64,000 nt of DNA from Phoronis australis (taxonomy: Eukaryota; Animalia; Phoronida), in NCBI GenBank assembly GCA_002633005.1, contig NMRA01000010.1, positions 1 to 64,000 of the forward strand. The letters run 5' to 3'. A program made the position numbers and the translations under genes. Under the pieces are notes generated by a model, which was not told where the DNA came from, ran no database searches, and worked only from the letters and a program-made list of their open reading frames with translations. Of the stretch, positions 1 through 59,757 are shown in pieces. How positions within the stretch are numbered: the first letter of the stretch is position 1; each line of letters starts with the position of its first letter.

Positions 1-189
1 GCGACTGGGCGAGTGGCTAAGTATATTCCTGGGAAGGATACCGACGAGTTGGAATTGGTACGTTCAGGCACTGCACAGTACACCATCAAGGCCAGCTGAT
101 GACCGCTCACGAGGTTTTATCAGTGTGCCTCGTTTTCGATCAATATTTAAAGATGGCGCGGGAAGATGGCGCTTTCGTGAAATAGGTGA

Positions 190-721
190 ATAGTAAGAGG
201 TTTAGGAGTCTTATTTTGCGACTCCTCGGACAAAGGTCATCCATGTGAAAGGAAAAGGTCAAAGGTCACGTGGAATAACTGCAATCGGAAGGGACACCAT
301 CCGCCTACCGGACGGATGTGTCAATGACGTTACACCTCATGACGTAATAGGTTTAATTGGACCTGTTAGAGAGGCACCCCGATGCCCGTTTTGCGGCTCC
401 TAGCAACGGATCGAGAATCGAAACAAAAGAGGGATGCTGAATAAGAACAAAACATTATTTCGTGTGCGCCGAGTGTCGTCGTTGTATACTGTGTGTTCTG
501 TCTCATAGATCAAAAACAAAGGCGTATACAAAAGGGGATAACCACCCAACTCAACAACAGATGTCGCGTAAAGTCTAACCCAGGCCCCGACGGTACTAAG
601 CGGATCGTACTCATAATATTAATAATAAGAAGCGACCAGCTAACACAGAACATAAAACTTATAGCGTTTAAACGTGTATTAATGACAAACCAACACTACA
701 AAAATCATCCAGACGTTCAGA
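190..721 (+). repeat. Left terminal inverted repeat of the Polinton-like element
   Basis: ATAGTAAGAGGTTTAGGAGTCTTATTTTGCG...AAAATCATCCAGACGTTCAGA aligns by eye along its whole length to the reverse complement of 8581-9131, with scattered substitutions. Confidence 0.92.
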
Positions 722-1645
722 CACCGTTACCCGTACCAGTGGTCAATTATTAAGACCCAATTATTAAATGTCCGGGCTCTTCAGATTAATTGTATACTGG
801 ATGAATTACATTTCTTATATAATTTTTCCATAAAGTCTGGGCTGACACATAGATTACTGTACACAGGATCAATTAAGTGCAATTCGAGGCGACAAATTGC
901 TGTTATAGAAAGATAAAGGATAAGCACTGCTTTTCATGATTTCTTATAGTTTGAAGTCTCATTTGGTAGCTTTATGGTCTTTTTCTTTCGCTATGTCGAA
1001 TGGAATAGTAATGTTCATTGGTGATCTTTGACTTGTGGCACATCTCTGCAAAATAGGTGCAATAAACTGGTGCACTCTAATTTTGGAAAGTAATCCCACA
1101 ATGTGACGGCTCCTCTTAAAATCTTGTACTATGAAAGATCAGATTTTGTTGTCGAGTACATGTACGTCATTGCACGTTTTTAGCACCAAGTGTTAGACTC
1201 ACATAACATAGACTACTACATGTAACATCTTTAAGTCAACCAACCTAAAATCAGCTTTACTGAGAAATTGTTTGCCAAATGGCCTGACTCACTATGCCAT
1301 TTTATTCGTGTCACACTGGCTCGTCACAATACACTTTAACTTCTGGCACGTTTTTAACTATTTTCGAGGTGGAAGCACGAGCATTATACGTAATATCATC
1401 ACCCCTTCGATGCCAGGTATTGTTTTAACAAGAAAAAGAAGAAATTATTTTCAGTTTATTTTGCCAATTGAAAATGTACAAGCATCTGTGACCCCTACTA
1501 TAAATGAAGTATTTGTATTCCGTAACAAGTTTGCAACAAGGTAAATGAAGATAAAGAGAAGGAGCAGGACAGCAACAAGAAGATGGAGAAGAAGAGGAAA
1601 AAGAGCCAACGGTATAATAATTTTCAATAGCGCAGTTGTGCTTAC

Positions 1646-1838
1646 GAGTCATCAAAACAATGTGACCCAGTTAGCACCCGCTGAGGGTGAATCAGCGAAG
1701 CACCACACACGTGACTACCGCGATGTTTCAATGAGAGTACCCATGGCCAACTATGTGGAACCGCTTCTTGTCCGCCAACAATGCGTCCATTTCCTGATTT
1801 AGGCGTGTAGGATGGGACACCACAGTTAAGCTGGCCCA
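1646..1838 (-). pseudogene. Trypsin-family (S1A) serine protease exon: activation site and N-terminal part of the catalytic domain
   Basis: Translation [56 protein letters not shown]; flanked by ttttag acceptor and gtaag donor. The conserved W of WVLTAAHC is R. No Asp/Ser catalytic exons are recognisable before the TIR. Confidence 0.85.
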
Positions 1839-2356
1839 CTAAAATCAACAATTATTTGGTTACTTATTTGCTTTTGTCTACTATGAAGGACTCGTATTTT
1901 GGAAAAGTCGGATGAAGAAGTCTCACCATCAGCTTTATATGTAGAGAGACGACCTGTAACTTGTTAACTCATAGTTTGCTTTTAGTAATCATGATTTTTT
2001 CATTTCCAGGCCAAAACCATTGTGAAATCTTGTAAAACTAACAGACTCTTCATTTCGAAAACGTAAGCCTAACGCTGCATAACTATATCCACTTTGCTCC
2101 ATAATGCTATTGTTTGCTATTTGGCTTCGGCGGCTTTGAAACAACTGAACTTTCGTTATTCCTTGAGACCGTGCCCGGAGCATAAAATGACCAGGAAGGT
2201 ACAGTACTGAACAGTGACGATCTGCCAGTAGTTCCCTATTCTCTCTAATCTGTAAGTAAGACCACGAAGTAGAGTTCAGCTTTATAACAGCAGTGTACAT
2301 GACCAAGGGACGGGAGTTCCTTCAGCCCACGCATTCCCAGTACGACCAGAACTTAC

Positions 2357-2464
2357 GGCAAACTTCATCGCTTCCATCACCACAGTCATCGGAACCATCG
2401 CAACGTTTACTCGCCAAAATACAGTTTCCGTTGCCGCAAGTAAACTCACTTGAACTGCAGGTGA
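2357..2464 (-). pseudogene. LDL-receptor class A domain exon of a mosaic serine protease
   Basis: 108-bp phase 1-1 exon (ttgccag / gtaagt) encoding [35 protein letters not shown], with six Cys and the DCxDGSDE motif. Missed by the ORF track. Confidence 0.9.
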
Positions 2465-2865
2465 CTGGCAAGAGGAACAAAAATTATCTGTCATTCAAAA
2501 TTAAACTAACGATAAGTGTTCGAGCAATAGAACAAAACAATTTTGTCAAATATAATTCCTTGCAATTTAGATCAATGAAAATAGGAAATATGCTTTTCTA
2601 TACGAACTTTACGAAGGTCTAGACAACAGAAACCGGCTTGTTTTCAACTAGACCTATCATCTATTCGGTTTCATCAATCTCCCGGTTATCAGTATTTTCC
2701 AAGCATCCTAATAGACATACTCAAAACAAAAATTCTTTTGTTTCGTTGCCGAACATTACAACCTCCTCCGTGTGACTAATTGCCATTCAACCGTGAGTTG
2801 TGGCGCTATGCCAGCATGTTAAAATCTTAGTCAATTTTCAGTGTTCAAAGCTAAACCTGTTTTAC

Positions 2866-3038
2866 CTGAACAGCTTCGTTAGAGACAAATTTGATATACA
2901 GATGCTGCCCTGTAGACTGGATGTCCGCTGGCTGATATTTGCCACAGACAGTTTTCAGTAAGGCGGCTTTGCTATCCGTTCCATCGTACACAGAGACATA
3001 ATCGAATTCACATTTGGCATCCGCTTCAACGTCGAAGT
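2866..3038 (-). pseudogene. CUB domain exon fragment (5'-truncated) of a mosaic serine protease
   Basis: DFDVEADAKCEFDYVSVYDGTDSKAALLKTVCGKYQPADIQSTGQHLYIKFVSNEAVQ is a typical CUB C-terminal half. It directly abuts the penton ORF. The 3' boundary (cag/gtaaaa) is tentative. Confidence 0.85.
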
Positions 3039-3442
3039 CTGAACGTAATTTCAGCTCCTTTCTTGACACGCATATGCATCTTATTAGTCACGTCGTTGTA
3101 ACCCAGTCTAATTTTTTGATCTCTGTCAGAACCCCAAGGTTCTTTAAGCATGGCGTGAACACTCTTGACGAGTTCTTTTGGGCTGTAATAAAATCCCGAA
3201 GCGAGAGTCTTGAGCGCATAGCCGTCGTCCTTTCCTAGTTTCGTTCTCATCCAAGCTTCGCCGTGTCTTATGTTGTAGTACGTGTTAGGAAATTGAATTT
3301 CTGCTAGCCCTACCTCCCAACGTCCGTCCAGGTCTATGTTTCTGGGAAGCTTAGTTTTAAATTGCGCGAGTGTGTTGTCGGGGAAATAGTCCATGGAGCT
3401 GTTGCTAGGAAGTGTAAGATAGAACATCGATTCAGCTGTCAT
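3026..3442 (-). pseudogene. Polinton/adintovirus minor capsid (penton-like) protein, N-terminal part, truncated
   Basis: FYLTLPSNSSMDYFPDNTLAQFKTKLPRNIDLDGRWEVGLAEIQFPNTYYNI matches the N-terminus I recall for Polinton minor capsid proteins. The ORF runs into host CUB sequence and stops after 138 aa. Confidence 0.75.
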
Positions 3443-3695
3443 TCTTGTTTAAAGACGGATTAGGTAAGACGACACCGAGTGAAGCGCTAATCAGCGTCAC
3501 CCAAAGAGTCCGCTTGTCGTTCCCTGTTGTCAAATTGTATAAACTCCACACTATGACGGTGAAGAGGACGATCATTTGACTGAAAAATACAATTTCCTTC
3601 TTCGGTACTTTTCGTCCGAATAACGACCAGTGTCTCTCTGTTGTATTACCAAGTTCAAAATTCTCCTCGGGTGCGTCCGTTTCGTTGGAACTCAT
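3432..3695 (-). CDS. Small two-transmembrane-helix Polinton/adintovirus ORF
   Basis: ATG at 3695. Two hydrophobic segments (EIVFFSQMIVLFTVIVWSLYNL; LWVTLISASLGVVLPNP). Packed between the integrase and penton ORFs with stop/start overlap. Confidence 0.65.
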   Translation of the reverse strand: MSSNETDAPEENFELGNTTERHWSLFGRKVPKKEIVFFSQMIVLFTVIVWSLYNLTTGNDKRTLWVTLISASLGVVLPNPSLNKNDS

Positions 3696-3724
3696 GCTGT
3701 TGAATGAGAGCAATGGTGTAAGTG

Positions 3725-4816
3725 TCAATTGTTATAGGTGACAAATTGACGCTCGTTAACCCACGAATTGAAGGAGTCGGGATATCCCGCCCACTTCACC
3801 AGATATTCAGTCTGCTTTTTTCTTTGACGCGTTTTGAGGACGCTCTCCACCTTGTACACGTTTCTATTGGCTACTTTCTGAAGCTCTTGTTGGTAAAACG
3901 TTCCTTCGAGTATTTCCCCGTGATCATCCATCTCCGTGTACGTTGTCGGTGTGGTTGAGAGTACTTTATCAATAATGAAAAATTCCTCAGTCCAATTGGG
4001 TAAATATCCCTTCTTGAAAGGACGTTTTGCCATACTTATGACAACCCGGTCACCGGTCTTAAATTCCGGTTGGGTCTGTTTCGTATACGGTCCGTAAAGG
4101 GTCTGCCATACTGTCTCTTGATTGGCTCGTGTGACAGACGAGGGCGTGGTCTTGATAGATCGATGGTACGTGTTGCTGTAGGACCTCACTAGATCGTGTA
4201 ATACTTCAACGTATCTCAAGGTGTTTTTAGACGTAAAGAACTTCCACATTTTTGTTTTTAAGGTGCGATTAAAACGCTCGGCGATGCTTGCCTTGGTCTC
4301 CTCGTTATGGGTAGTAAAGAAACCAACTCCTTCCTCCTTGAGAAATTTCTGAAAGACACGATTTGTAAACTCGGTTCCTTTATCAGTCTGCAAGGTCTTG
4401 CATTTCCGTCCACTGGTGAAAATAAGTTTGAAAGCTTCAACTAAGCTTTTTCCCGTCTTGTCTAGGAGTGGAACAGCGAAGGCGTATTTCGAGAGCACGT
4501 CTATGCAGGTAAGAATGTACCTGTGACCGTCATTGAATTTTGCCAACTTGGAGACGTCAACGAGGTCCGCTTGGAATTGTTGATCGATAGATCCAACGAT
4601 AACGCGTCGTCTCGTAAGATTTCTAACCAGAGGCTTGTGGCGAACGTAAGTGTCTTCGTTACTAAGCCAGTTTTTCACAATCCGTTTCTTCAATTTGCCT
4701 TTTAGGCCTCGATGAGTGGAGTCTAATCCTCCAAAACTTCCCGGGTACCTTGGATCGTAGTACACGCGTCTTAATTTTCCATCATTGTCACGTTGTTTCT
4801 TTCCCTTTTGTCTCAT
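3725..4816 (-). CDS. Polinton retroviral-type DDE integrase with C-terminal chromodomain (copy 1, triad intact)
   Basis: 363-aa ORF with QADLVD, LQTDKGTEF and AERFNRTLK motifs; C-terminal YKVESVLKTR...EYLVKWAGYPDSFNSWV chromodomain. Confidence 0.93.
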   Translation of the reverse strand: MRQKGKKQRDNDGKLRRVYYDPRYPGSFGGLDSTHRGLKGKLKKRIVKNWLSNEDTYVRHKPLVRNLTRRRVIVGSIDQQFQADLVDVSKLAKFNDGHRYILTCIDVLSKYAFAVPLLDKTGKSLVEAFKLIFTSGRKCKTLQTDKGTEFTNRVFQKFLKEEGVGFFTTHNEETKASIAERFNRTLKTKMWKFFTSKNTLRYVEVLHDLVRSYSNTYHRSIKTTPSSVTRANQETVWQTLYGPYTKQTQPEFKTGDRVVISMAKRPFKKGYLPNWTEEFFIIDKVLSTTPTTYTEMDDHGEILEGTFYQQELQKVANRNVYKVESVLKTRQRKKQTEYLVKWAGYPDSFNSWVNERQFVTYNN

Positions 4817-5326
4817 TGCGAATGAGAGGTCTAGGTGGTGTCAATCTGTAATATGGGGTCCATCGCGGTCGTGATGCAACCCTTTTTCGTTTCTTTATTT
4901 TAGGAGTAGTTTCCGTGCTCTCTTGTACTAACGACCAACGTACTTTATTTCCAATAAGTTCCCGTGGAACAATAGCATTTCTCAATTCCCGAGAAAACTC
5001 TTTCCAGCCCGATAGTGCCATCTGTTTTCGTTTCCTGAGCACGTCATTCAAGAGATCAGTGATGTTTGAAGATTCAATGGGTGATCCGTCAATGTAGACA
5101 CGACCTCGTTCGTCCCAGCTCATTCTCGTATTCTTTTTAATTTTTTCCAGCAGCAACTGGGCCTTACGACGCATTGAGACCGGGACGGAGTCAACAATAT
5201 CCGCATCCATAGTTTTAGCAATATTCTTTTCCTCGTTTTTATCTTCGGCCGGCTTTGATCCCCTTATTTCCACTTTTAAAGATTGATTCATTTTGTCGTG
5301 GTAGGTGACAAATCGCTGAAGAATCT
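4788..5326 (-). pseudogene. Partial copy of the conserved Polinton ORF upstream of the integrase
   Basis: Near-identical to the 3' part of 6780-7493; cut off at the N at 5327. Confidence 0.75.
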
Positions 5327-5423
5327 NATGTTTCTGGGAAGCTTAGTTTTAAATTGCGCGAGTGTGTTGTCGGGGAAATAGTCCATGGAGCTGTTGCTAG
5401 GAAGGGTAAGATAGAACATCGAT

Positions 5424-5687
5424 TCAGCTGTCATTCTTGTTTAAAGACGGATTAGGTAAGACGACACCGAGTGAAGCGCTAATCAGCGTCACCCAAAGAG
5501 TCCGCTTGTCGTTCCCTGTTGTCAAATTGTATAAACTTCACACTATGACGGTGAAGAGGACGATCATTTGACTGAAAAATACAATTTCCTTCTTCGGTAC
5601 TTTTCGTCCGAATAACGACCAGTGTCTCTCTGTTGTATTACCAAGTTCAACATTCTCCTCGGGTGCGTCCGTTTCGTTGGAACTAAT
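5424..5687 (-). pseudogene. Disrupted second copy of the two-TM ORF
   Basis: Start ATG mutated to ATT; TGG to TGA stop at 5538-5540. Confidence 0.75.
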
Positions 5688-5716
5688 GCTGTTGAATGAG
5701 AGCAATGGTGTAAGTG

Positions 5717-6808
5717 TCAATTGTTATAGGTGACAAATTGACGCTCGTTAACCCACGAATTGAAGGAGTCGGGATATCCCGCCCACTTCACCAGATATTC
5801 AGTCTGCTTTTTTCTTTGACGCGTTTTGAGGACTCTCTCCACCTTGTACACGTTTCTATTGGCTACTTTCTGAAGCTCTTGTTGGTAAAACGTTTCTTCG
5901 AGTATTTCCCCGTGATCATCCATCACCGTGTACGTTGTCGGTGTGGTTGAGAGTACTTTATCAATAATGAAAAATTCCTCAGTCCAATTGGGTAAATATC
6001 CCTTCTTGAAAGGACGTTTTGCCATACTTATAACAACCCGGTCACCGGTCTTAAATTTCGGTTGGGTCTGTTTCGTATACGATCCGTAAAGGGTCTGCCA
6101 TACTGTCTCTTGATTGGCTCGTGTGACAGACGAGGGCGTGGTCTTGATAGATCGATGGTACGTGTTGCTGTAGGACCTCACTAGATCGTGTAATACGTCA
6201 ATGTATCTCAAGGTGTGTTTAAACGTAAAAAACTTCCACATTTTTGTTTTTAAGGTGCGATTAAAACGCTCAGCGATGCTTGCCTTGGTCTCCTCGTTAT
6301 GAGTAGTAAAGAAACCAACTCCTTCCTCCTTGAGAAATTTCTGAAAGACACGATTCGTAAACTCGGTTCCTTTATCAGTCTGCAAGGTCTTGCATTTCCG
6401 TCCACTGGTGAAAATAAGTTTGAAAGCTTCAACTAAGCTTTTTCCCGTCTTGTCTAGGAGTGGAGCAGCGAAGGCGTATTTCGAGAGCACGTCTATGCAG
6501 GTAAGAATGTACCTGTGACCGTCATTGAATTTTGCCAACTTGGAGACGTCAACGAGGCCCGCTTGGAATTGTTGATCGATAGATCCAACGATAACGCGTC
6601 GTCTCGTAAGATTTCTAACCAGAGGCATGTGGCGAACGTAAGTGTCTTCGTTACTAAGCCAGTTTTTCACAATCCGTTTCTTCAATTTGCCTTTTAGGCC
6701 TCGATGAGTGGAGTCTAATCCCCCAAAACCTCCCGGGTACCTTGGATCGTAGTACACGCGTCTTAATTTTCCATCATTGTCACGTTGTTTCTTTCCCTTT
6801 TGTCTCAT
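5717..6808 (-). CDS. Polinton DDE integrase with chromodomain (copy 2; QADLVD changed to QAGLVD)
   Basis: 363-aa ORF with the same motifs as copy 1 and about a dozen amino-acid differences, including the probable first catalytic Asp. Confidence 0.9.
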   Translation of the reverse strand: MRQKGKKQRDNDGKLRRVYYDPRYPGGFGGLDSTHRGLKGKLKKRIVKNWLSNEDTYVRHMPLVRNLTRRRVIVGSIDQQFQAGLVDVSKLAKFNDGHRYILTCIDVLSKYAFAAPLLDKTGKSLVEAFKLIFTSGRKCKTLQTDKGTEFTNRVFQKFLKEEGVGFFTTHNEETKASIAERFNRTLKTKMWKFFTFKHTLRYIDVLHDLVRSYSNTYHRSIKTTPSSVTRANQETVWQTLYGSYTKQTQPKFKTGDRVVISMAKRPFKKGYLPNWTEEFFIIDKVLSTTPTTYTVMDDHGEILEETFYQQELQKVANRNVYKVERVLKTRQRKKQTEYLVKWAGYPDSFNSWVNERQFVTYNN

Positions 6809-7493
6809 TGCGAATAAGAGGTCTAGGTGGTGTCAATATGTAATATGGGGTCCATCGTGGTCGTGATGCAACCCTTTTTCGTTTCTTTATTTTAGGAGTA
6901 GTTTCCGTGCTCTCTTGTACTAACGACCAACGTACTTTATTTCCAATAAGTTCCCGTGGAACAATAGCATTTCTCAATTCCAGAGAAAACTCTTTCCAGC
7001 CCGATAGTGCCATCTGTTTTCGTTTCCTGAGCACGTCATTCAAGAGATCAGTGATGTTTGAAGATTCAATGGGTGATCCGTCAATATAGACACGACCTCG
7101 TTCGTCCCAGCTCATTCTCGTATTCTTTTTAATTTTTTCCAGCAGCAACTGGGCCTTACGACGCATTGAGACCGGGACGGAGTCAACAATATCCGCATCC
7201 ATGGTTTTAGCAATATTCTTTTCCTCGTTTTTATCTTCGGCGGGCTTTGATCCCCTTATTTCCACTTTTAAAGATTGATTCATTTTGTCGTGGTAGGTGA
7301 CAAATCGCTGAAGAATCTGATTATACATTTTCCCTTTCTGACTCTCATCAACGTCTTTTCGCTCCACGATATTTTGCATGTCTTGGTCCAACCCACTCAA
7401 AGCTTTGACGGGAAAGCTAGGGGGAGATTTGGGTGTGGAAAATGACTCCAATAAGCGAGGATCAACGAGAGCCATTTTCTTAGCGTACTCCAT
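6780..7493 (-). CDS. Conserved Polinton/adintovirus ORF of unknown function
   Basis: ATG at 7493 (MEYAKKMALVD). Motifs LSGLDQDMQNIV..YNQILQRF, SWDERG...GSPIESSNITDLL and GWKEF...VPRELIGN. The stop overlaps the integrase start. Confidence 0.7.
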   Translation of the reverse strand: MEYAKKMALVDPRLLESFSTPKSPPSFPVKALSGLDQDMQNIVERKDVDESQKGKMYNQILQRFVTYHDKMNQSLKVEIRGSKPAEDKNEEKNIAKTMDADIVDSVPVSMRRKAQLLLEKIKKNTRMSWDERGRVYIDGSPIESSNITDLLNDVLRKRKQMALSGWKEFSLELRNAIVPRELIGNKVRWSLVQESTETTPKIKKRKRVASRPRWTPYYILTPPRPLIRNETKGKETT

Positions 7494-7494
7494 T

Positions 7495-7838
7495 TTACCT
7501 TCGACCGAATAACCCGGGAAGAATTGTTCCCGCCAAGCCACCGATGAGGGGCTCTAATACTGCTCCGAGAAATCCGCCTCGTTGTAAAATCTGCCTTTTG
7601 GTTTTCAGAGGCGTCTTCTTCTTCACAAGAGTGCGCAGGCTTGTTTTGTGTTTACGAAGCTTCGATGTTTGATTGGGGGTCAGTGGTGGGTTCCCGTTCA
7701 ATTCGTTGACCGCTACTTCACAAAGACAGTGGATGAGATCCTTGTCGACGTGTTTAATAATTTTTTGGCAATACTAGGTTTACACTTGGACAGTAGTTTG
7801 AGTATATCCGAATGTCTCCTCAACCTTTCAGAGGGCAT
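7495..7838 (-). pseudogene. Small basic virion-type ORF ending in a QRGG/FLG amphipathic peptide (adintovirus cupiennin-like), with one frameshift
   Basis: From ATG 7838: MPSERLRRHSDILKLLSKCKPSIAKK, then a frameshift in the A-run near 7762-7767, then IIKHVDKDLIHCLCEVAVNELNGNPPLT...KRQILQRGGFLGAVLEPLIGGLAGTILPGLFGRR. Confidence 0.65.
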
Positions 7839-7975
7839 CTTAAGCGTGCAAAGTCTGGACATCGACTGACGTAACTCATAGCTTACGGGTCTATTTCAAT
7901 TTTTTGGGAAGGTAGGCATATTGCGTTTCATCTGAAAAAACGCGCGTCCGCAACCGCATGTTTTAGATCCACGAA

Positions 7976-8545
7976 AAGATAACCATCCGCCTGAACCTGC
8001 CGCTTCAAATAGGCTTTTTCGTTTATCAGTATGCAAAGTTGCGCATGTTGGAATTTTACTACGACTTTATGTTAAAATTTGTCGACAGATCCGATTTCGA
8101 ATATTGCGAAATGGACACGGACTCGGCGTACATGGCAATATCCGGTAACTGTCTTGAGGACGTAATTAAACCAGACATGCGAGCAACTTTCGAGAGGGAA
8201 AACATCTTTGGTTTCCGCGAACGAACACGGAAAAAAACGAAGCTTACGACAAGCGCACGCCCGGCTTATTGAAATTGGAATTTGAAGGGGACTACTGCAT
8301 CGCCCTTTGCTATAAAACATATTTTAGCTGTAAAATAGTGCAAAGACAAAGAAATGCAATCGACAAAACGAGGTATCTCAAAGTGTTACAAACCACAAAG
8401 AGTAGCTCGGCCCTCACAAAGGATTCCGGTTAGGCGGTGATAACATTATGTATACCTACCTGCAAGACAGGTGCGCGTTCACCTACTTTTATCCCAAACG
8501 ACAAGTGTTAGACGACGGCGTCACCACTGACCTTTGAACATTTAA
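7976..8545 (+). pseudogene. Protein-primed family B DNA polymerase (pPolB), C-terminal fragment, frameshifted
   Basis: LNLPLQIGFFVYQYAKLRMLEFYYDF...YCEMDTDSAY (motif C). After shifts: KRTPGLLKLEFEG..IALCYKTYF and YTYLQDRCAFTYFYPKRQVLDDGVTT. It ends just inside the right TIR. Confidence 0.88.
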
Positions 8546-8580
8546 TTCGGACATTTGATAAATTTACTATAGACTACTTT

Positions 8581-9137
8581 TCTGAACGTTTTGATGATTT
8601 TATATTCGAATGATGATTTTTGTAGTGTTGGTTTGTCATTAATACACTTTTAAACGCTATCAGTTTTATGTTCTGTGTTAGCTGGTCGCTTCTTATTATA
8701 AATATTATGAGTACGATTCGCTTAGAACCGTCGGGGCCTGGGTTAGACTTTACGCGACATCTGTTGTTGAGTTGGGTGGTTATCCCCTTTTGTATACGCC
8801 TTTGTTTTTGATTTATGAGACAGCACACACAATATAAAACGACGACACTCGGCGCACATGAAATAATGTTTTGTTCTTACTCAGCATCCCTCTTTTGTTT
8901 CGATTCTCGATCCGTTGCTAGGAGCCGCAAAACAGGCATCGGGGTGCCTCTCTAACTGGTCCAATTAAACCTATTACGTCATGAGGTGTAACGTCATTGA
9001 CACATCCGTCCGGTAGGCGGATGGTGTCCATTCCGATTGCAGTTATTCCACGTGATCTTTGACCTTTTCCTTTCACATGGATGACCTTTGACCGAGGAGC
9101 CGCAAAATAAGACTCATAAACCTCTTACTATACTACT
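8581..9137 (-). repeat. Right terminal inverted repeat of the Polinton-like element
   Basis: Reverse complement of 190-721 plus the intact terminus CCTCTTACTATACTACT. Confidence 0.92.
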
Positions 9138-12100
9138 CTCGCCTGTTCCTATTATTTCATTTAATGCTAGATTGCATTTAAAAATATTTGGTCCCTTAAA
9201 ATGCTTGTTTCTCGTCCATACAAATCGTCTTCTAGTCTCACGCATCTCAACGCCGTAGACTCTTGAAAAATATTCAAGTGACAGAATTTATTGAATAAAT
9301 ACGGCTTATTGGTAAAAATAACACAACGTGTGTTTAGCACACAATGGTATATTAGGCACTCATAGAATATACGAACAAGTGTGCGCAGTGTTCTTGTATT
9401 GTACCATTCATCCTACTATGAATGTGAGATTTTCTGGCCGACTGAGCCTTCCATTGGATGCTGTGAATACCACCCCTGGCCTAATGAGCTTAACTGAATA
9501 TAACTTTTGTACAAGAGTGTGTTTTTGAGGATTTCATAACAACACGTTGTCGAGATGAGGTTTACCAGTAAGCATATATACATCAGCTAACTGTGTAGAA
9601 CGTGAAGCAACTGACGGTGAGTTCTCGCAGTAGTTTATCTAACCACCATATAGCTAAGTTGACTCCATTTAAGTTTTATGTATTCAAAGTAGTTATTTAA
9701 TCAGTCCGTTGTTGGAGCGTTTGGTAGGTTGTGTTTTATATGAATTCGGAGTGTGATTAATCGTTGGTTTGCAAGGCCACTGGTTGCTATGCGCTTGAAT
9801 TTGAACCGGTTTAAGGTTGAGAAAAAATACTAATAAAAATTTAACCTACAATTTGAATTTAGTTTCACTTTAAAACATCACGAGTGTAAGACAGTATTAC
9901 GATGTACATACTGCTCACAGTGTTATGTTCTGAATACGAAAACTGGCTGAGTAACTCCAAGCATTATACGTACTTCTAATGCAATTGTGAGCTCGCGTTC
10001 TGACAAGAATAACTTTTGACTTATGCCCCATACTGCTGTAAAACTAGTACCAACTCATTAAAAATTGTTTTCTAAATTTGGAAAGCACGGACAACAATGA
10101 GTCTATATGCTCTGCGTGACCCGCCGGTACAAGCAAAATTCTTGAGGGAGGTCTCAAGCCAACTAGCAGTTCTTCAAAAGCCCAAAAAATCAATGCTAGT
10201 GAGAGCCTAGAGGAGATCAATTATATCACAATATATGGTCTGAATCAAAAGTTACATAGTATTTCGACGCAAGCCTGATTGGTAAAACACAACAAATCAG
10301 TCTCAAACCTGCTTGTTAATGTCTCACGTTTTTGACCCGTCTGGCGAAGACTAATTAATACAAACCGTTAATACATCTATCCATATAAACAAAACGATGT
10401 TTTGTTAAGCCACATAAAATTTGTTTCTAGTCCAGTTGTGATATTTTGTGGGATGGAGAAAACAATATTCCATCTGTTCCAAAAACTACATAGGATATAA
10501 TAGTTCAGATGGGAAGTTTTTGCCAATCATAAAAACATTCAACCATTGAATTATTTAACGACGCTATTTCACCGAGCACTTGATCAACATAACACACGAT
10601 ACATGCTGCGTTCTAATCTATACCTAAATTATCAAACTGTGCACTCGAGTAAATTTAATTTGCAAGTTGTGATCATTTTTGTCTAACTCAAAAAGCTACG
10701 GAATGGACACATGGTTCTGTAGTAACACCAAACAGATCAATTCTTTCAAAGGATCCATTGCTACAGGCAGATCCGTTTATTTACATGCATTCATACTTAA
10801 GATAAAACTTTCGTGATATGATACTTGAAACGAAACTAAGGAGTTCTGAATATGAGTGAACGACTACTTCACTCTGTCATGTATTCTGTTAGCTTCGATA
10901 TAACATATCCAGGTGTTGCTAGCCATTAGATAGCTCAGCCAACTATCAAAACTGTTTTGCCGCTTGCCTTAAAACTTAACGTGAAGTTGAGTGTACACAT
11001 AATGTATATGTGAACACCGCCGAAAATTTGAAATAACCCGATTTTCTGTAACAAGCTGGTCTCAAATATTCCTTTTTCAAGATATCAACAGTTTCTTCCA
11101 TCAAAGTGAGCTGAAAGATATTCAGTGGTTGATATCATCAGGCCCAATGTTATTATAAGGGTTGGCAAACACCAAAACATTCACGACATTTTGATTATCT
11201 TTTCGTAGCCTTTTTAATCGAACATTGAGTGACCGTTGACAGTAGTAAGTGATTACGTGTCAAACGTTGGGTCAACAGTCTCTACTTGAATGCACAGCAT
11301 TAAGATGATACAGTACACTGTATGTGGGCACCTCTCTCAGCCAATTGTCGCAGTGTCTCGAAATTACGGAACACATCTAAAATTAGGCTAAATCAAAAAA
11401 GAGATAACGCACTTAAACACTGTGTACTGACATCATAACCAAGGTGTGGGAGCTTTTACTTTTAAAAATTATATTATCCAAATGGATGCCTCCGGCGCGT
11501 GAACACTCATTTACTGTAGTTGCCGCGGCGAACATCACATTGTGCACAACGTGATGCACAGCTGACTTGACGAACCAACTATCACGTTTCGAATATGTTC
11601 CCTAGAACTCGGGCTGGGCAGACTTGACCCCACTTGATAACGTTTTCTTATTATACTGAGAAAAAAGTCAACGAACAAAAACGCAAGCAGCATCTGAATA
11701 ATAATGGAGAAATTACAAACGTACCATCAAAGTTATTGGGTAATGTAATGTCCGTCATGGCATACGGCAAGAGTGAGGTTACGTGCCGGGGGCGTCCATT
11801 TGAATGCTCAACACTACAATGTGAGAAATACTCACACGCCTTGTATATGTAATTGCCCATCCTAGCACCCAGCCTAAAATGGGGGGGGGAGTCAGTTTTT
11901 TGAGAATGTGGACCTTTTACTAAGACTCACTGGGCACGTTCAGAGCTATATATTGTACATTTGCCGAATTTAAGTAGTTCGTTACTGAAATTTGAATGCC
12001 CAAGACATTTAAAGCAAACTATACAGCCTACTTCAACTTCCGCTCCATATAACGCGGTGCCAAGGTTCAATCATTATGTAGTTATGATACCCAAATTCCA

Positions 12101-14940: not shown

Positions 14941-17900
14941 GATATACATATGTACATATATACATATATATGTATATGTATATGTGTATGTATGTATGTA
15001 TGTATGTATGTATGCTCCTATATTAAAATAGTGCGATAATATCCAATGAGATCGACTTCTAGGCGTAAGAGGCCATGCATTGCACTGATTTGTGTATGTC
15101 TTAACTGTTCGTCAAATTTCACTCGTGTAATTTTCTATATGGGAGCATTGGCGGTGAGCGTAATGAAGACGTAAACGCATCTTGTGCAACTATCAACAGT
15201 AATACACAACACTTTCTAGTGAAGAAGAGAAGCAGTTAAAAACGTTTGTTGATCTCGCAAAAGAAATAGAAGAGATAAGTCTTCCAAGTGGAATGAAGGA
15301 AGCGGGATTAGCCTTCGATAAGAACTACTACAAAGCAAACCGCGAGGTAATAACTTGCTGAACCACAACATATAATTGTTATCTTAACTGAGGAAATTAC
15401 AATGGTGTTCATTTAAAAAGTTAAACTTTTACTAGTTGATACAAGTTCATCGTTCAAACGATTGTCTTGCGTTTTATAAAGTAAATTCGTAAGTATTAAC
15501 TCGGTCCATCTTTCCATCGAAAATGTTTAATACATAAACTGTGCCGTTATTTTGACAGATTAATTTGAGTTCCGAGGTGATGAAGATACTGACCCTGAAA
15601 GCCTCGGCAAGGACACCGGAAATGGTTCAACAAGTCATGGCAGGTCTTCAAACGTTGCGCTCGTTTGCTGAATACCCCCTTCACATGCAATCTAGACTGG
15701 CCCAGGTGGCTTGGTATCAAATGTGAGTAGGAGGACTGGCCCAAGTGGCTTGGTATCAAATGTGAGTAACAAGACTGGCCCAGTTGGCTTGGCATCAAAT
15801 GTGAGTAACAAGACTGGCCCAGTTGGCTTGGCATCAATTGTGAGTAACAAGACTGGCCCATGTGGCTTGGTATCAAATGTGAGTAGGAAGACTGGCCCAG
15901 GTGGCTTGGTATCAAATGTGAGTAGGAAGACTGGCCCAAGTGGCTTGGTATCAAATGTGAGTAACAAGACTGGCCCATGTGGCTTGGTATCAAATGTGAG
16001 TAGGAAGGCATTTACCAAAAACATTTATTTTATAGTTCCACAAATTATAAAGAATATGGACCGCCAACTCTATAAATTCTCAGTGTGAAAAATTTGTGAT
16101 CTGCAAAAGCTAGTTCTATGGACCGAGACGTCATTATTCACGATTTCAACGAGTGTCTCGCGGCGAGAAAAATCTAGCCAAAATCAAGTGCTCTCAATGA
16201 AAATATACAAAGATATCTCGAATAATGTCACAAGATCTTGCTTTCTAGCGAGACAATAGGGTTAGTGAACTCAACCTGCCTCCCGTTCAGTAACGCTAGG
16301 ACCTCACTAAAAAGCAAGACTTCGTGAGATTACGTGAAATATGGCCGTGTATTTTAAATAATAACAAGTGACCTTGGCTAGATTTTAGCTAGGTCCTGGC
16401 GTAGGTCCTAGCGTTACTGAACGCACGCCCGGTGTTATGGAGGCAAATACGTGGTCCACTTACCCACCTGAAAACTGGGTTGGGCATAAAAGTAGAGCGG
16501 TGTCTCCTCTGGAAGTTAAAAGGAAAACACCTTACTTACGAATCTGCTATATGATAAATCTCATTCCAAGAACTACACTGACCACAGTGCTTTGAAAAAG
16601 ATAGAGGTTCAGTGAAACAGAGCGACACCTTTTGGGCACAACGATTACTAGAAGCCACAAACGGTTGCCGAGCGTGACATGGTGGACAGATTTTAATTTC
16701 GTCTACTTATACCTTTGAATACGCATCGTGGAAACTGGCATGTTCTCATAGTTCCTTGGAATTAATGTTTTTCCTTTCTAGTGTGCCACAAAAGAAGATG
16801 ATCATTCGTCAAGGTCACGAAGCCCAAAACTTCTACTTCGTTCTTGGCGGTCAAGCAATTATGAAAGCAATAAAGACTGACCCAACAGGAGAAACCTACA
16901 TGGCTACTGTGGGGCGACTGACAAAAGGGTCTAGTTTTGGGGTAAGAGTTCTCGGCTTGTATCGTAAGAAACAGCGTGGTCTAGTTTTAGAAAAGCTTCG
17001 ATGCTAAGCGCTTTTGAGCTGAGCCGAGCTGAGCTGAACTAGAAAAGAACAATCGACGTGTCTCAATCAGCTTATCATTTTTGGAGCAAGCTTCACAACT
17101 CACTGTATGGCTGCTTTTAAGCAAACATAAAATGACGTAATACGAGCAGTTTTTCAAGTACAAATTAAATATTGGATGTAAGCTCCGTGGTTATCATCTA
17201 TAGGACCAGTTTTGGTTAATGAACCTATCCAGTAAGCAATAATCGATTTCACTTTGCAGCCACAGCATTTCTCTGTTGGTTAGCCGTGACGCCTGAACTT
17301 AATAACACTCTTTGTGGGTGTGTTCTCAAACTTCGGTGACTCTGAAAATGATAAAAATGATATGCCATAGGCGGATTTANGGGGGGGGGCTAAGTATAGG
17401 CTCTCCCAGACCACCGGCAGCGGCGCTGCGCACTACGACTCCGTTTCCATCGTCTACTTCACTGTGCAATGAAGAAAATTACTTCATTTTTTAAAGAAAA
17501 TGGAATCTGAGTGACGATGAAAAAACAGAAGCTGCTGGTAAGATGTGAATTTTAATCGAAGCCTTAGTGAATCACTCAGAAACTCATAATTCTCTCTTTG
17601 TAAACCTTAACTTAAGACGATTTCCAAAGCAATCGCGTCATTAATGCCAACACAAAAACGAATTTGGTCTTTCGGGCAATTGAAGACTATTTTAAATACA
17701 ACGAATTTGTTACGAACTGATTGCACAAAATTTAAAAAGTGTAATAAGCATTACAAAAAGTAGGTTTCGCGCGCAAACACTGTGGACCATAAACAAGTAA
17801 GTCTCTTAGAATCAATGTGCGAGTGAAATTGTGGTGGTGCAGTGGTAGTAATTGCAGTTTTTCAAGTTTGACACGTTCTCTGTGTTTTTTTTCTTTGCCT

Positions 17901-31334: not shown

Positions 31335-32328
31335 AGTAATATAGTTGTTTAGGCGCCCCGTTTCAGCGGGACTTCGGTCAAAGGGCCGACATACACCAAA
31401 GATTAAAAATCAAAAGTCACATGTGATGGGTGCAACCGAAAGTGACATCGTCCGCCTATCGGATGAAAGTGACAATGACGCCACAAGTCATTAAGTAATA
31501 AGATTAATTGGACCTGTTGGAGAGGAACCTCAATCCAAGATCAAAGTCATGCGTGTAACGGAATGAAGTGAAAACGAGGTCATAATCGAACTGGAAGTCA
31601 AGTGACTGCTGATATCACCTGGTAGATTAGGGCGTGGCACCGTCTACCACAGGGGATATTCTGACCTCAAAAAGACGTTGAATACGTTCAAATGAGGTTG
31701 TAGAGTACAAATGATTGAGAGTGCAGGGGATTCCGTAATATTCCGTACTTTTGCGTTCGCCACATGTCGTCCTTCTATAAGTTATCCCCTTTGCTCTCTC
31801 TCATCTCTCAACAACATATGTCGCTTATACCTAACCCGTGAAAGGTATTAAACTGATGAAATATTGTAATCACTTAAGATAGAAAAGAAACCTTTTTCAT
31901 GTTTAACTGTGTATCAATAACAAAGTACATTCTAATCATAATGGCGTTACAATGTACTTTGCTAAACATAAAAAGGTTTCTTTACCATCTTAGGTGGTTT
32001 CAGTATCTCTTAATTTTGAGAACCCTTTCACAGGTAAGGTGTACGCGACATCTGTTGTTGAATTAGGTAGTTACAATATCTCGTTTAGTTTAGTTTAGTA
32101 CCTTTAACGGGTTAGTTATATGTGTTGTTGAGAGGTTAGAGAAATCAAAGGGGATGACTTATAGAAGGAGAACATGTGCAGTACGCAAAATATGGGAATC
32201 AACCTTTCGAACTCATTCAGTACGCAAAATTACGGAGTCCCCTGGACTCTCGATCAGTTGAACTCTACAACCTCAACGTATTCAACGATTGTTAGTGTCA
32301 GAACTTCCGAGTGGTGGACGGTGCCACG
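31335..32328. mobile_element. Fold-back element built from diverged Polinton-type TIRs, with no coding interior
   Basis: Starts AGTAATATAGT. Shares TCGGTCAAAGG, TCCGCCTA, TTAATTGGACCTGTT(G/A)GAGAGG and CTCAACAACA(T/G)ATGTCGC with the TIR at 190-721. 31633-32328 is an imperfect palindrome centred near 31940. Confidence 0.75.
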
Positions 32329-33633: not shown

Positions 33634-36600
33634 CTAATAATAAAGCGTATCGTGCAGTCTTGAGCTGTGTACGAACTCCTTGACAGTTCTCACTTTAAAG
33701 GCGTCCCAGTCTGCCTTCTCCTGTAGTTTTTGCTCTAGAGATTCTTCGGACGGATAAGGCTGTATCTGGAATTATTAAGAAACATCGAATTCAATTGGCT
33801 CACTATTGTTCACATTTCACTAGAGTTAGACCTACTTCACTACAGTTAGACCTACTTCACGTTTTATAAAAAGTTGTGACTTAAATACTCTTTTGAACGT
33901 GAGTGACAATTTATGAATAAGTTTATATATAAAAAAAGTTTCGACTCAGTTAAAAATGTTTTTACTTCCAAACTGTCATAACTGGTTAGTTTCTTCGGGT
34001 ACTGGTTTTTTTCCGTAGATAAGCCCACCCGATGAAACGCCCACAACTTCTGGTATCAAGTGTCCAGATAGTGGGCGTTTATTCTGAAAATTTCCTCTTA
34101 AAAGCCTACTAAGCGTCAACTTTTAATCACAAATTCAGTTTTGTGGAGCATTTAAAAAAAGCAGTGCATGCCTAATGGAAAGCAGTATCGTCTCTATAGA
34201 AAGCAGTGTGGGGTCATATGGAAACCAGTGTGGGTCCTCATGAAAAACAATGTAGACCCTTGTAGAACGCAATGTTTTCTGCTCATCAGTCGAGGTTCAT
34301 TATAAACATCCCACATCAATAAAACATCATGAAACAGAATTTTGGAAAAAATCGGGTTTATAGTGGAGCCCCAGTATTAGTGTTAGCAGAAGTTGGTTGG
34401 GGTATAGATACTGACCGTTTTCCTTAAGTGCTTTATCATCGTTTCTGTCAAATGATGTAGAAAGAATTTCTTGTTTATCAAGATGCACTCGGCTCCATCA
34501 GAGACCAAACTAACGCTTGTCGAATTTCCTGTCATCGCAAAAGCCACGTTCACAAGACCCTGAAAAAAATCGAAACCTCTCACCAATTTTTTCTTAGGGA
34601 TAGTACGTTGTTCATGACTTTCGAAACAACGGAACAAGCTGCCCGATGAGAAGAAACCTAGGGACGTAGACGCCGTAACTCGAGGAGATATAACGTAATT
34701 CCGCCATAGCAAAGTGGTTTCTGAAGAATTGAGTTTGAAATGGATACTGGAGCACATCTGTTTGCGGTGATATGGCTACACACTGACGTCGGCTTTGAAA
34801 AGCAAACGACAAATCAACATTTCCGGTATTTCTGTTCAATACCAAAAGTGCAGTGGAATGATCTCCAACAAGAGATTCGAATTTCAAAAAGATAAAGCGC
34901 CTCACAAAGGTGTCTTTTGTGTTGAGCTTTTGAACCTGGACAAACACGGTTTCGGTTGGAGTTGGTTTGTGATCCCTTTCGTCCTTGACCTCCATCCCAC
35001 TAGTGCCCTGAAAAAAGTGCAGCGCATACGTGAACTGGTCAACTACCAGGGCCAATAAAACGGTAGGCCAAACTCACCAAAAATTACATCTCGCTATATT
35101 AACGTAATTTAAAGATGCATAGTCTCATTAAATTGTGATTATTCAAATGAAATACTAATTTAAAAATAACCACGGTCGTGCATCCGAGAACCAGACACCA
35201 TTATAACCGTGCGAAAGACTATTTTAATGTATATGTGTCTGGTAATGTTTCATGGCTAACCTGATGAAACAAGGCACAGTTTTTTATTATTTTATTTCAC
35301 TATCAAATAATGGTTGCGTCATATTTGGAATTAATATAGTTTTTTATCTGTTCGTCCTCGTTTTTAAGGGTATCAATTGTGTTTTCTTTAAAATAACAAT
35401 TTATTTACAAATTGTTTCTTGTCCTGATTGTATACACATTTCTCCAGGAAGTCACGAGGTACTAGGTGGCACTTGCTGCTAATTTAAATATTCACGGTTT
35501 CAGTCAGACGTACTGTAGGACATTTAACTTCATCACGGAGCACAGTTCAGCTTGTATAGTTCAGCTCCTAAGTTGTGTAAACTTAGTTGTTCAACTCAGT
35601 AATATATGACGACGAAAGCCGAAACGTTTTTATCCAATACTTTCATGTACTTGTGTTTCTTCATTCCTCTGAGTCGTTAAAATTGTACAAAATTGTGATA
35701 TTTTTGGAGGCGAAAAACAAAATAGCAAGTTGCCTATCTCGTATGTTTACTTGGCAATGGGGTTTGATCGCTCCGTAAGCCGCTGTATAAGTAACCGATA
35801 ATTCCCGCCATAGCTGTTTTTAATGATATTTTCAACAATGCGGAGTAGGATCAGAAGCGCACCGTATCAGCAAGCCTCGACTCACTCTTCGTAATGTTTT
35901 GTTTTGTACTGTTAGGTCGCAGTTTCTACAATTCTAAGGTCAAGCCCACTTTATATATGTATATTACAGAAAACAGTAAGGTGTTAAAAACCATCACCAC
36001 TTCTTGGTTGTGTGAGTTTCTGCAGAGCTTGCTCTTCTTCGCGTTTTTAAAACAATGTTGAGGCACTGACAATTTTTGCACGGGTAAAGGTACTTGTCAG
36101 AATATGACGCATGCCTGTGAAAGACCTGTTACGCCTATAAATGTCAAATTTAGTATTGCAAAGTACATTTTCCTGATTAGTGAATCTTTGGGGGTAATTC
36201 AACTGCACCGGTACGAAAACTACTCCAATTATGGTCATAGTAGGCGTATTTAGAAATTATTGTTTCAGAGGGCAAAGCTTTGCCTGAATATAAGGGTAAG
36301 AGAAATCCACCCCCGTCGCCATCGGCTCTATCCCGGTCGTCAATAAATTTCACCCGTCGTCACTAACTTCAACCTGCCCCAGTAGGCCACCGCTTTACTC
36401 CCCAGTCACTGAGTGCCAAATTTCTCCCGTAATTTTCCATTGAATGCTTCGATGCCAGATTTTTCTTGATTTTCCAGAAGTTTCTTTAATTTTTACTCGA
36501 ATCTCAGGTCCGACAGTAAAATTACCTGTTCGTGTAATCGTGTGTAAATTGCTTCGATTGTCTTTAGGTGTTCTTCTTCTGTGACTGCAAATTCAGTGTA

Positions 36601-57881: not shown

Positions 57882-59757
57882 CTCCGCACCATGTAGTTTG
57901 TGCTACGTCTTCAAAAACACATGGCCAAAACTTCACACTAGTCAATAAGGTATCCGGAGATATAATTTGTATTTTTACAAAAATAAAAACACATGAAACG
58001 TTAGCAACCGACAACATGAGGCCGATGCGTCCTACCAGAAATATTGGCTTCAGGTGAGGTGACGGAGCAAGGGGCCTACACAAATTCCGAAACAAAACTA
58101 ACTGTCGCCCATAAATAACCACGAGTGCAGCATAATTGGGTAGGATTATATGAAATGTTGTGACTATTGAATGCTAGGCGCTTATATTTGATTTGTGATA
58201 TTGCTTTTAATAAGTCGCAGTTTGACATTTAACTTATTGATATGCTATCTCCGCTTTATTGCTACACTACTCGATCGTTGCTGTAAACTTACGGACACGT
58301 GTATTGTTGAACGATAGGAATAAAAATAACCATATCTACACTTATGTCATTAATGTTCGAGGCCCGTCCAACCACGTTAGTTCTCAGCAAACGGGAAATA
58401 AAAAAAACAAGTGGAAACCGATTACTTGATGGTTAAACTGAGTAAAAGAACAGTGGACGACATAGTTACCCGTTGTATTAAGGTGTTAGGGTGGACTCGA
58501 AGGTTCTGAGCTAGAGTTTGGTCTAACAATGCCTTTAGAGCAAACGCACAGTGAAGATCGATGGATTCGGTGTCCAGGGAGCAATTGTCTTATTCCCCTT
58601 CTTCGACGCGGCACCCTAACATTTAAATCAACCAAGTAAAATACTCATGTCCCTGCTAAAGTTGAGCCGATGTCAGATTTGAGAGCATGGCCGATGGTGG
58701 GGGAGTGCCCGTCACGGCAATGTTTGCTTCGCTAATCAACTTCCTCTCTTAAAAACATTCTCATGTTAACAGGTTTTTATCCACTCAATCCTATTGCAAA
58801 AGATACAATTATAGTTTATATAGTTTTAATGCCTCTTGACCCCCCACGACGACAATTACAAAGTTGTTTAAAAACAATGCCTAGAAGTGGAAAGTTTTAA
58901 GGTACATGACAACTTTTCAGCAAATTTGTGCAACCTTCAAAACTATCGAATTTAATTCGGCAAAAGCATATATTCTATGAACATGGAAACTCTATGTAAT
59001 TTGATAGTTGACTTCATAGACATTTTCTATTAAGTGGGTGATACGTTACCACGTCTTTTTCAATAAAATTAAGTCAAAAAGAAAGGTACGTTGATAACAA
59101 TACAGCAAAGTTAACAATATGACTAAAGTTATTTTGTTGATTTAAATGTTCGAGGTAAAATCTCACAAACGCTGTTAAATTTTTCTGAAGAAGCAATTCA
59201 TTTTCGTTTATGCAATTATTTCAATAAAAAACATGTTCTTCATGCAAAAGCAAAACATTTCATCTAAAAATTATTAAGTATCGTTTTGCAGAACAGTGCA
59301 TAATTCATAGTATGTGAACACTCCGTCTGAAGTCGTTCAGCCATTACTGGCATGTATGACATTGTTAAGTTAGCCAAATTAAGACATATTTTTGGTTCTC
59401 CCATCAGCGTGGCTCGGCTTGTACGAGAAAACTATTTATATATTTATTTCGCAACTGCTTCACATGCTGCAAAACGTCGTATTGTTAAGCAAGATTCGCA
59501 AAATAAAAATTATTGTATATATTGCACTGGCTCTTTTGGTCATATGATATTTTTGTATGAATTCATATCGACCATTCCTGTGAAGCACATGAATGATATG
59601 ATAGGACATAAACGGTTGATAAACATGAATACAGTTGACATTTTCGTGCAAGGGTTACCATGGATGGTGATAATTTACAATGTTTTCCGTTTTTCACAGA
59701 GCAGTGATCAATGAGGGTTTTCATGAAAGATGAAATGAAATGACTGATGATTATTCA

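What the first reader, a model, noticed from the sequence alone, without database searches (positions are those of the whole stretch)
190..9137. Polinton/adintovirus derivative that appears to carry a captured, intron-containing host protease fragment between its TIRs
Seen: the TIRs bracket viral genes (3026-8545) and also ~2.3 kb (722-3038) of host-type DNA with CUB, LDLa and trypsin exons and their introns. The fragment is cut on one side by the penton ORF and on the other by the left TIR. Known: Polintons normally carry major capsid, packaging ATPase and adenain protease genes; none is recognisable here. Inference: DNA-level transduplication analogous to Pack-MULEs, giving a non-autonomous element that could move host exons using a helper. 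I am not aware of this being commonly described for Polintons. Both capture junctions lie left of the N at 5327, so they are within one contig. Alternative: an insertion into a resident protease gene followed by rearrangement.
Basis: partly seen in the sequence, partly recalled or inferred. Interest (0 to 1): 0.85.

Follow-up and report, generated by a model that had tools for sequence, protein, structure and literature searches.

The report
Dead Maverick holding copied host exons
A broken virus-like transposon (Polinton/Maverick) in an animal genome has half of a capsid gene replaced by a 2.2-kb, intron-containing piece of a host protease gene that also exists intact and expressed, most likely a recent one-off DNA-repair accident rather than a mobile gene-shuffling element.

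Summary
The observation largely holds, with corrections. The host piece is 888-3039, not 722-3038. It carries CUB, LDLa and trypsin exons with introns that host mRNA splices. Contigs of other element copies leave the window's sequence at 887 and 3039, and parent mRNA leaves it beyond 888 and 3039. Both junctions are therefore element-internal, inside host exons, and share 0 and 1 letters. An intact, expressed parent gene exists. The window copy is nearly identical to one parent version but lacks 43 nt and has two changes in a conserved trypsin motif. It replaces the rear half of the penton gene and, by the order in a relative, the genes after it. Limits: no listed contig bridges either junction; the right TIR lies across a contig join; the left tip and target-site duplication are missing; nothing suggests the cargo was amplified. 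Best reading: a recent single-copy capture by gap-filling repair (a 'Pack-TIR') into a dead Maverick. Intron-bearing Maverick cargo and Pack-TIRs are both published; I found no printed case that combines them with a traceable parent.

The parts
1..189 (.). Unrelated high-depth repeat abutting the left TIR and standing where the tip should be; not part of the element
   Evidence: summed contig depth 690-1560 against about 8-17 in most cargo bins; no match elsewhere in window
190..709 (+). Left TIR, lacking the 6-nt AGTAGT tip
710..887 (+). Element sub-terminal non-coding DNA (not host)
   Evidence: diverged contigs span 574-774 and 666-853; element-type contigs leave the window at 887 in X2, X3, X4
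888..3039 (-). Captured host genomic fragment, 2,152 nt, of a CUB-LDLa-trypsin serine protease gene
888..899 (-). First 12 nt of the second trypsin-domain exon, cut by the left junction (no shared letter)
   Evidence: acceptor AG at 901-900; the mRNA loose end at 1646 begins with these 12 letters
1646..1838 (-). Exon: activation linker, IVGG site, trypsin N-terminus with the catalytic His; window-only W>R and A>G changes in the His motif
   Evidence: Pfam Trypsin E 4e-13; mRNA ends 1646/1838
2357..2464 (-). Exon: LDL-receptor class A domain
   Evidence: Pfam E 8e-13; joint 1838/2357; splice sites
2861..2868 (-). Scar of a 43-nt deletion that removed the end of the CUB exon
   Evidence: parent-type contigs carry 43 more letters here in all 4 DNA runs (35+8 in X3 and X4, 42+1 in X1 and X2); mRNA carries 34 unplaced letters here
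2866..3039 (-). Rear part of the CUB exon, cut by the right junction (1 letter shared with the element)
   Evidence: Pfam CUB E 9e-14; mRNA and parent contigs run on past 3039, element contigs start at 3039
3040..3427 (-). 5' half of the minor capsid (penton) gene; its frame stops at 3026 and is not in frame with CUB
3432..3731 (-). Small hydrophobic ORF conserved next to the integrase in relatives; function unassigned
   Evidence: tblastn hits in L004, L006, L009, L017
3725..4816 (-). Integrase (rve + chromodomain), left-contig copy, open frame
3336..7319 (.). 2-kb stretch present twice, either side of the single N at 5327 (likely an unmerged contig overlap)
   Evidence: 98.4% identical, 30 differences spread evenly; integrase copies differ at 6 silent and 14 replacement codons
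5717..6808 (-). Integrase, right-contig copy
6780..7773 (-). Two unassigned element ORFs (about 234 aa and a small basic one)
   Evidence: no Pfam hit; no usable Atlas hit for the larger; E 0.11 to the ORF upstream of the integrase in L017
7967..8545 (+). Broken C-terminal remnant of the protein-primed DNA polymerase (DTDS motif), spread over several frames
   Evidence: E 0.001 to the C-terminus of the L001 polymerase; frames
8612..9137 (-). Right TIR with intact ACTACT end; the next 6 nt (9138-9143) are the would-be target-site duplication

Best explanation
A decayed Polinton/Maverick copy holds a 2,152-nt genomic piece of a host CUB-LDLa-trypsin gene in place of the rear half of its penton gene, most likely patched in once, recently, by gap-filling repair of a break inside the element, and it has probably not moved since. 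Shown: the element's identity; the two junction positions (887/888 and 3039), each inside a host exon with 0 and 1 shared letters; an intact spliced parent; near-identity to one parent version; decay of the copy. Inferred: that the lost element DNA included the PW, major capsid and protease genes (from the order in relative L009 and in vertebrate Mavericks); that the filler was copied from the parent locus during double-strand-break repair (template switch or end-joining); that the copy is single and inert. It cannot encode a working protease, since it has no start, no Asp or Ser motif exons and a truncated CUB exon. It makes no in-frame penton fusion.
For: Element-type contigs stop matching at 887 (X2, X3, X4) and 3039 (X1-X4), and parent mRNA and DNA run on past the same points. 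Element DNA flanks the cargo on both sides in its native order, within one contig (left of N 5327). Intact parent: one contig per run covers the CUB exon with the 43 nt the window lacks and continues past 3039; 76 and 72 mRNA reads continue there. A third copy is hinted: X4 shows three versions at 2774/2775 (depths 30.3, 19.0 and 23.4, the last with the window's letters), and parent-type contigs differ between X1/X2 (3 changes) and X3/X4 (7 and 6) over the CUB exon. Youth: the closest listed X1 pieces differ by 6 of 1,519 letters, while the other version differs by 17 of 232. Decay: of 5 listed exon changes found only in the window, 3 alter residues, two of them in the His motif. No other protease exon in 64 kb (150 proteases by tblastn; flanking-exon motifs at chance level). 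Relative L009 reads integrase, small ORF, penton, 166 aa, 374 aa, weak C5 protease, as in the int-mcp-pw-Mcp-pro module of Barreat and Katzourakis. Tan et al. attribute most single-copy animal Pack-TIRs to gap filling, with a median microhomology of 2 bp.
Against: No listed contig bridges either junction. In all 4 DNA runs the only contig over 2815-2974 is parent-type, so the window's letters at 2933 and 2998 and its deleted form were seen in none; the same holds for 1667 and 1680 and for 3022 in X1 and X2. Contig simplification can drop a minority version, but this was not tested. The 4 DNA runs are one sample, possibly the assembly's source or a pool, so three versions do not prove three loci. 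The replaced element stretch is probably several kb, far larger than the median gap of 4.6% of element length in Tan et al. The parent's position is unknown, so the cis bias of gap filling could not be checked. The 0-1 letter overlaps do not separate gap filling from end-joining or from capture during the element's own replication.
Confidence: 0.64

Rival explanations
1. True transduplication: the fragment was captured at another site, or during the element's extrachromosomal replication, and the cargo-bearing derivative was then integrated here, perhaps with helper proteins from intact family members.
For: Both TIRs are long and 96.5% alike, the right tip is intact and the integrase frame is open. 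The family is multi-copy, with an uninterrupted penton in deeper contigs. No parent exon lies in the 55 kb to the right. Nematode Mavericks carry intron-bearing cargo in the same left-arm position.
Against: Only 1-3 versions of the cargo at listed sites and no raised depth. Left tip and target-site duplication are not visible. The polymerase remnant is broken and a second large deletion is present, so the copy looks like a fossil. The TIRs lie on different contigs.
Confidence: 0.13
2. Assembly artefact: the junctions, or the element as a unit, were produced by mis-joining short reads from the parent gene and from family copies.
For: No bridging contig is listed and the window's CUB-exon version was seen in none of 4 runs. 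The runs hold only 0.63-0.73 of the sampled words. The same locus has an evident unmerged overlap at N 5327.
Against: Overlap-based assembly needs shared sequence, and the joints share 0 and 1 letters. Two chimeric joints would have to keep the element's order by chance. The window has its own changes and a 43-nt deletion. Low-depth contigs carry window letters at 817-868, 1006 and 2775. One X2 contig differs at 868 and lies 31 letters from its nearer end, so it may run about 12 letters past the left junction (weak; below the tool's bridging rule).
Confidence: 0.13
3. Resident gene caught between two same-orientation Maverick insertions and trimmed by two deletions, so that the outer TIRs now bracket a piece of a disrupted allele or tandem paralogue, as Polintons reshuffled the C. 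elegans eri-6/7 locus.
For: Precedent in Zhang et al.. The left flank in the window is only 189 nt and the right flank lies beyond the contig join, so neither excludes the parent being adjacent. The two sides of the N differ by 1.5%, as two copies might.
Against: It needs two insertions and two deletions that each remove a TIR and leave the element pieces in native order. Two intact parent-type versions plus a third are seen in one sample. No upstream protease exon lies in 9138-64000.
Confidence: 0.1

Closest known systems
Single-copy Pack-TIRs of animals (Tan et al. 2021, PMC8277862; passages read; 12 supplementary files searched for two terms)
   Same: Non-element genomic DNA inside a TIR element, internal breakpoints, little or no microhomology, apparently one copy, parent still present.
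   Different: Their cases are mostly hAT and Tc1/mariner. 'Maverick' and 'Polinton' do not occur in the main text, and 'Maverick' occurs once in the searched supplements, as a column heading. Here the host element is a virus-like Maverick and the replaced stretch is likely several kb.
Cargo region of nematode Mavericks, wasp and krma genes (Widen et al., bioRxiv 10.1101/2022.07.12.499685; section 11 read whole; passages; supplements not seen)
   Same: [quoted passage not shown]
   Different: Their cargo is whole genes of Maverick-associated families in largely complete, horizontally moving elements. Here it is a broken fragment of an ordinary expressed host gene, with the parent traceable, in an element that lost its capsid module.
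Vertebrate-type Mavericks (Barreat and Katzourakis 2021, PMC8097293; section 7 read; passages)
   Same: (ACT)2 end motif, TIR of about 520 nt, integrase followed by minor capsid, polymerase on the other strand; most genomic copies are degraded.
   Different: Major capsid, protease, ATPase and most of the polymerase are missing; no target-site duplication; the modules point away from each other, as they report only for the cane toad.
Polinton-driven rearrangement of eri-6/7 in C. elegans (Zhang et al., bioRxiv 10.1101/2024.01.15.575659; passages; supplements not seen)
   Same: Polinton remnants and TIRs intermixed with host exons.
   Different: There the resident gene is split and inverted. Here an intact parent persists and the exons face internal element breakpoints.

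Membership tests
Polinton/Maverick | Long terminal inverted repeats | tested here: met
   520 nt, 96.5%; the arms lie either side of a contig join
Polinton/Maverick | (AGT)2//(ACT)2 or (AG)3//(CT)3 end motifs | tested here: inconclusive
   right end ACTACT present; the left 6 nt are replaced by another repeat (motif)
Polinton/Maverick | 6-bp target-site duplication | tested here: inconclusive
   the 6 nt after 9137 do not occur at the left end; the true left tip may lie outside the window
Polinton/Maverick | Retroviral-like integrase with chromodomain | tested here: met
   Pfam rve and Chromo above cut-off; 4,187 relatives at E<=1e-30 among 5,761 candidates
Polinton/Maverick | Protein-primed PolB | tested here: inconclusive
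   only a broken C-terminal remnant, E 0.001 to the L001 polymerase, no Pfam hit
Polinton/Maverick | Minor capsid protein (penton) | tested here: met
   46% to residues 1-132 of the L009 protein; its model (pLDDT 95.9) matches mavirus penton Z 14.1, rmsd 7.2, 235 aligned, and an adenovirus chain Z 14.4
Intact (autonomous) Maverick | Major capsid, packaging ATPase and cysteine protease genes | tested here: not met
   no tblastn hit at E<=0.01 with candidate references from L001, L008, L009, L013, L017; the element is a deletion derivative
Pack-TIR | Non-element host sequence inside a TIR element, with an identifiable parent copy | tested here: met
   caveat: the junctions are not bridged by a listed contig
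Pack-TIR, gap-filling class | Single copy, parent often nearby, element present without cargo at the same site in other lineages | tested here: inconclusive
   1-3 versions at listed sites; parent not in the window; no genome held
Transduplicate (Pack-MULE-like, multicopy Pack-TIR) | Several cargo-bearing copies, each with its own target-site duplication | tested here: inconclusive
   no sign of extra versions in one sample's contigs; contigs show presence, not absence

The most novel reading that the evidence does not exclude
This is the first step of Maverick cargo acquisition caught at base-pair resolution: Mavericks swap their capsid module for host genomic DNA, and such 'Pack-Mavericks' are re-integrated or packaged with proteins from intact family members, giving marine animals a route to move intron-bearing host exons within and between genomes.
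Probability: 0.12. Interest if true: 0.68.

Novelty: new variant of a known kind. Interest (0 to 1): 0.35.

Why it matters
How Mavericks acquire the intron-containing cargo that they move between nematode species is not explained in the passages of Widen et al. that I read. This locus gives a candidate for the first step: a very young piece of an identifiable host gene, both breakpoints known to the base, in the same left-arm position. As it stands it is one broken copy with no sign of movement or function, so it illustrates a known repair process more than it reveals a new system. It would matter more if a survey found such captures to be common in Mavericks, or found this one at several loci.

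Tried and rejected
No whole genome is held, so the parent locus, copy number and sequence left of the window could not be examined. No RNA holder was listed for the stretch. The two RNA runs laid are other samples of the same species label; nearly all their exon reads carry parent letters (e.g. 113 of 113 and 113 of 115 at 1667), which says nothing about whether the cargo is transcribed in carriers. Rejected: left junction at 722 (710-887 is element DNA). Rejected: the inverted 10-nt match near 714-723 and 3036-3045 as a capture signal, since the left copy lies 165 nt from the real junction. Rejected: a penton-CUB fusion, since the frames differ. The word-based search with the trypsin exon found 2 candidates and no hit. 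The HMMER search gave only distant relatives (best 62% identity among the 150 listed); 2 of those 150 have CUB-LDLa-trypsin in the same spacing, named TMPRSS-like or uncharacterised in a clam and a tunicate. No orthologue could be named. L001 (viral collection, 1 locus) has a different gene order and was not used as the model; of 20 metagenome loci only L002, L006 and L009 match the penton. The 374-aa L009 protein had no PDB sequence hit and no real Pfam hit: calling it the major capsid rests on position and size only. The Atlas did not answer for the penton piece and gave no usable hit for the 234-aa ORF. No Rfam match in 1-12000. Earlier-findings look-ups gave nothing on this genome and two notes on other elements that do not bear on this one. 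Summed contig depth was not used as a copy number.
Full report
WHAT IS THERE. The first 9.1 kb of the window hold a decayed Polinton/Maverick. Its inverted repeats are 190-709 and 8612-9131 (520 nt, 96.5%). The right one ends in ACTACT at 9137, the (ACT)2 motif listed for vertebrate Mavericks. The left one lacks the matching six letters, and the six letters after 9137 are not repeated at the left end. Bases 1-189 are a separate high-depth repeat. Inside, on the minus strand, are an integrase with chromodomain (Pfam rve and Chromo), a small hydrophobic ORF and the 5' half of a penton gene. The penton call was tested: the piece matches residues 1-132 of a 255-aa protein in metagenome locus L009 (46%, E 2e-32), and a confident model of that protein (pLDDT 95.9) matches PBCV-1, adenovirus, mavirus-penton and Sputnik chains at Z 12-15 and named minor capsid proteins in the viral library. 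On the plus strand only a broken C-terminal remnant of the polymerase remains. No major capsid, protease or ATPase was found with 14 reference proteins.

A CAVEAT ON THE BRACKET. 3336-5326 and 5328-7319 are the same 2 kb written twice, meeting at the single N, with 30 differences in 1,991 nt spread evenly. This looks like an unmerged overlap of two contigs that come from different alleles or copies. The right TIR may thus not belong to the same molecule as the cargo.

THE HOST PIECE. Exons for CUB, LDLa and the start of a trypsin domain score well in Pfam and have GT-AG introns. No genome is held, so I used public runs of one species label: four DNA runs from one sample, kept as contigs, and two RNA runs from other samples. 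The RNA shows a spliced parent transcript. LDLa joins trypsin at 2357/1838 (162 and 146 reads); reads run on past 3039 into host sequence not in the window (76 and 72 reads) and past 1646 into the next exon (99 and 99 reads). The first 12 letters of that next exon are in the window at 899-888, after an acceptor site. Element-type contigs leave the window at 887 in three of four runs among the rows shown, and at 3039 in all four. So the cargo is 888-3039, 2,152 nt, and 710-887 is element DNA. Both cuts fall in exons and share 0 and 1 letters with the element. Exons make up 24% of the stretch, so two exonic cuts are not remarkable (about 0.06).

THE PARENT. In each DNA run one contig covers the CUB exon, carries 43 letters that the window lacks at 2861-2868, and continues past 3039 (840 nt in X1 and X2). 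These contigs differ between runs: 3 changes from the window in X1 and X2, 7 and 6 in X3 and X4, which suggests two intact parent versions. X4 shows three versions at 2774/2775, one with the window's letters. The closest listed X1 pieces differ from the window at 6 of 1,519 letters, the other version at 17 of 232, so the capture is likely younger than the split between the two parent versions. Of the five listed exon changes found only in the window, three alter residues, including W>R and A>G beside the catalytic His. The parent is not elsewhere in the window: 150 proteases hit only the three cargo exons, and motifs from the two flanking exons matched at chance level. Its family could be placed only loosely, as a CUB-LDLa-trypsin protease like TMPRSS-type proteins of a clam and a tunicate.

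RESULTS AGAINST. No listed contig bridges either junction by 31 letters a side; only 16 of 935 and 32 of 290 pieces were shown. In all four runs the only contig over 2815-2974 is parent-type, so the window's own version of the CUB exon was not seen, nor its letters at 1667 and 1680. Contigs drop minority versions, and window letters do appear at low depth at 817-868, 1006 and 2775, but the junctions remain supported by the assembly alone. The four DNA runs are one sample and may be its source.

HOW IT MOST LIKELY AROSE. Element DNA flanks the host piece on both sides, at internal breakpoints and in native order: TIR, sub-terminal DNA, cargo, penton, integrase. In L009 the penton is followed by a 166-aa ORF, a 374-aa ORF and a weak C5 protease match, the order given for the int-mcp-pw-Mcp-pro module. 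The cargo therefore likely replaced several kb of that module. An insertion into the resident gene would present TIR tips to the host DNA, not internal cuts. The simplest account is a break inside a resident element, repaired with DNA copied from the protease gene. [quoted passage not shown] The steps from junction anatomy to repair mechanism are inferred. Nothing indicates later movement: at most three cargo versions at listed sites outside a small intronic repeat, no target-site duplication, a ruined polymerase. I put this at 0.64, against 0.13 for capture followed by re-integration, 0.13 for an assembly artefact and 0.10 for a resident gene trapped between two insertions (precedent eri-6/7).

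COMPARISON AND NOVELTY. It is a Maverick derivative that fails the test for an intact element, and it works like a single-copy Pack-TIR. [quoted passage not shown] Eight literature searches listed no paper on a Maverick holding a fragment of a traceable host gene; Tan et al. do not name Mavericks in their main text, and only as a column heading in the 12 supplementary files searched. The library lacks most subscription papers and repeat-database entries, and bioRxiv supplements were not seen, so this absence is weak. Also consulted as passages only: PMC6431247, bioRxiv 697771, PMC3014272. The names Pack-MULE and adenain are recalled or taken from the finding. Verdict: a real-looking but probably inert capture, a modest new variant of known things; interest 0.35.

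Noticed in passing
window 31335-32328: A second, more diverged relic of the same TIR type: a tip-like start at 31335, 75-78% match to the main TIRs over 31410-31529, and a long imperfect fold-back (31633-31854 / 32092-32328, 31808-32061) with a short 91% match to the TIR. No coding part seen.
   Followed up: partly
window 1-189: High-depth repeat that stands exactly where the 6-nt left tip should be; likely another transposon inserted into the TIR end. Family not identified.
   Followed up: partly
window 190-709: TIR-like contigs are far deeper and more varied than the internal genes, with many internal skips: possibly a large family of short non-autonomous TIR derivatives in this species.
   Followed up: no
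window 2152-2191: A 40-nt piece of a multi-copy repeat inside the LDLa-trypsin intron (many loose ends in all DNA runs).
   Followed up: no
window 40847-41212 and 34383-35073: Minus-strand host exons of a cyclic-nucleotide-binding-domain gene (Pfam cNMP_binding E 8e-5 for the first); other long ORFs at 12382, 21904, 57321 and 60334 had no Pfam hit.
   Followed up: partly
window 17380: A second single N before a G run: another contig join.
   Followed up: no
window 15655-16044, 56971-57331, 59757-60250: Tandem arrays with units of about 39, 59 and 44 nt.
   Followed up: no
L017:227-4218: A related element with the small hydrophobic ORF upstream of the integrase rather than downstream, a different order from the window and L009.
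   Followed up: no
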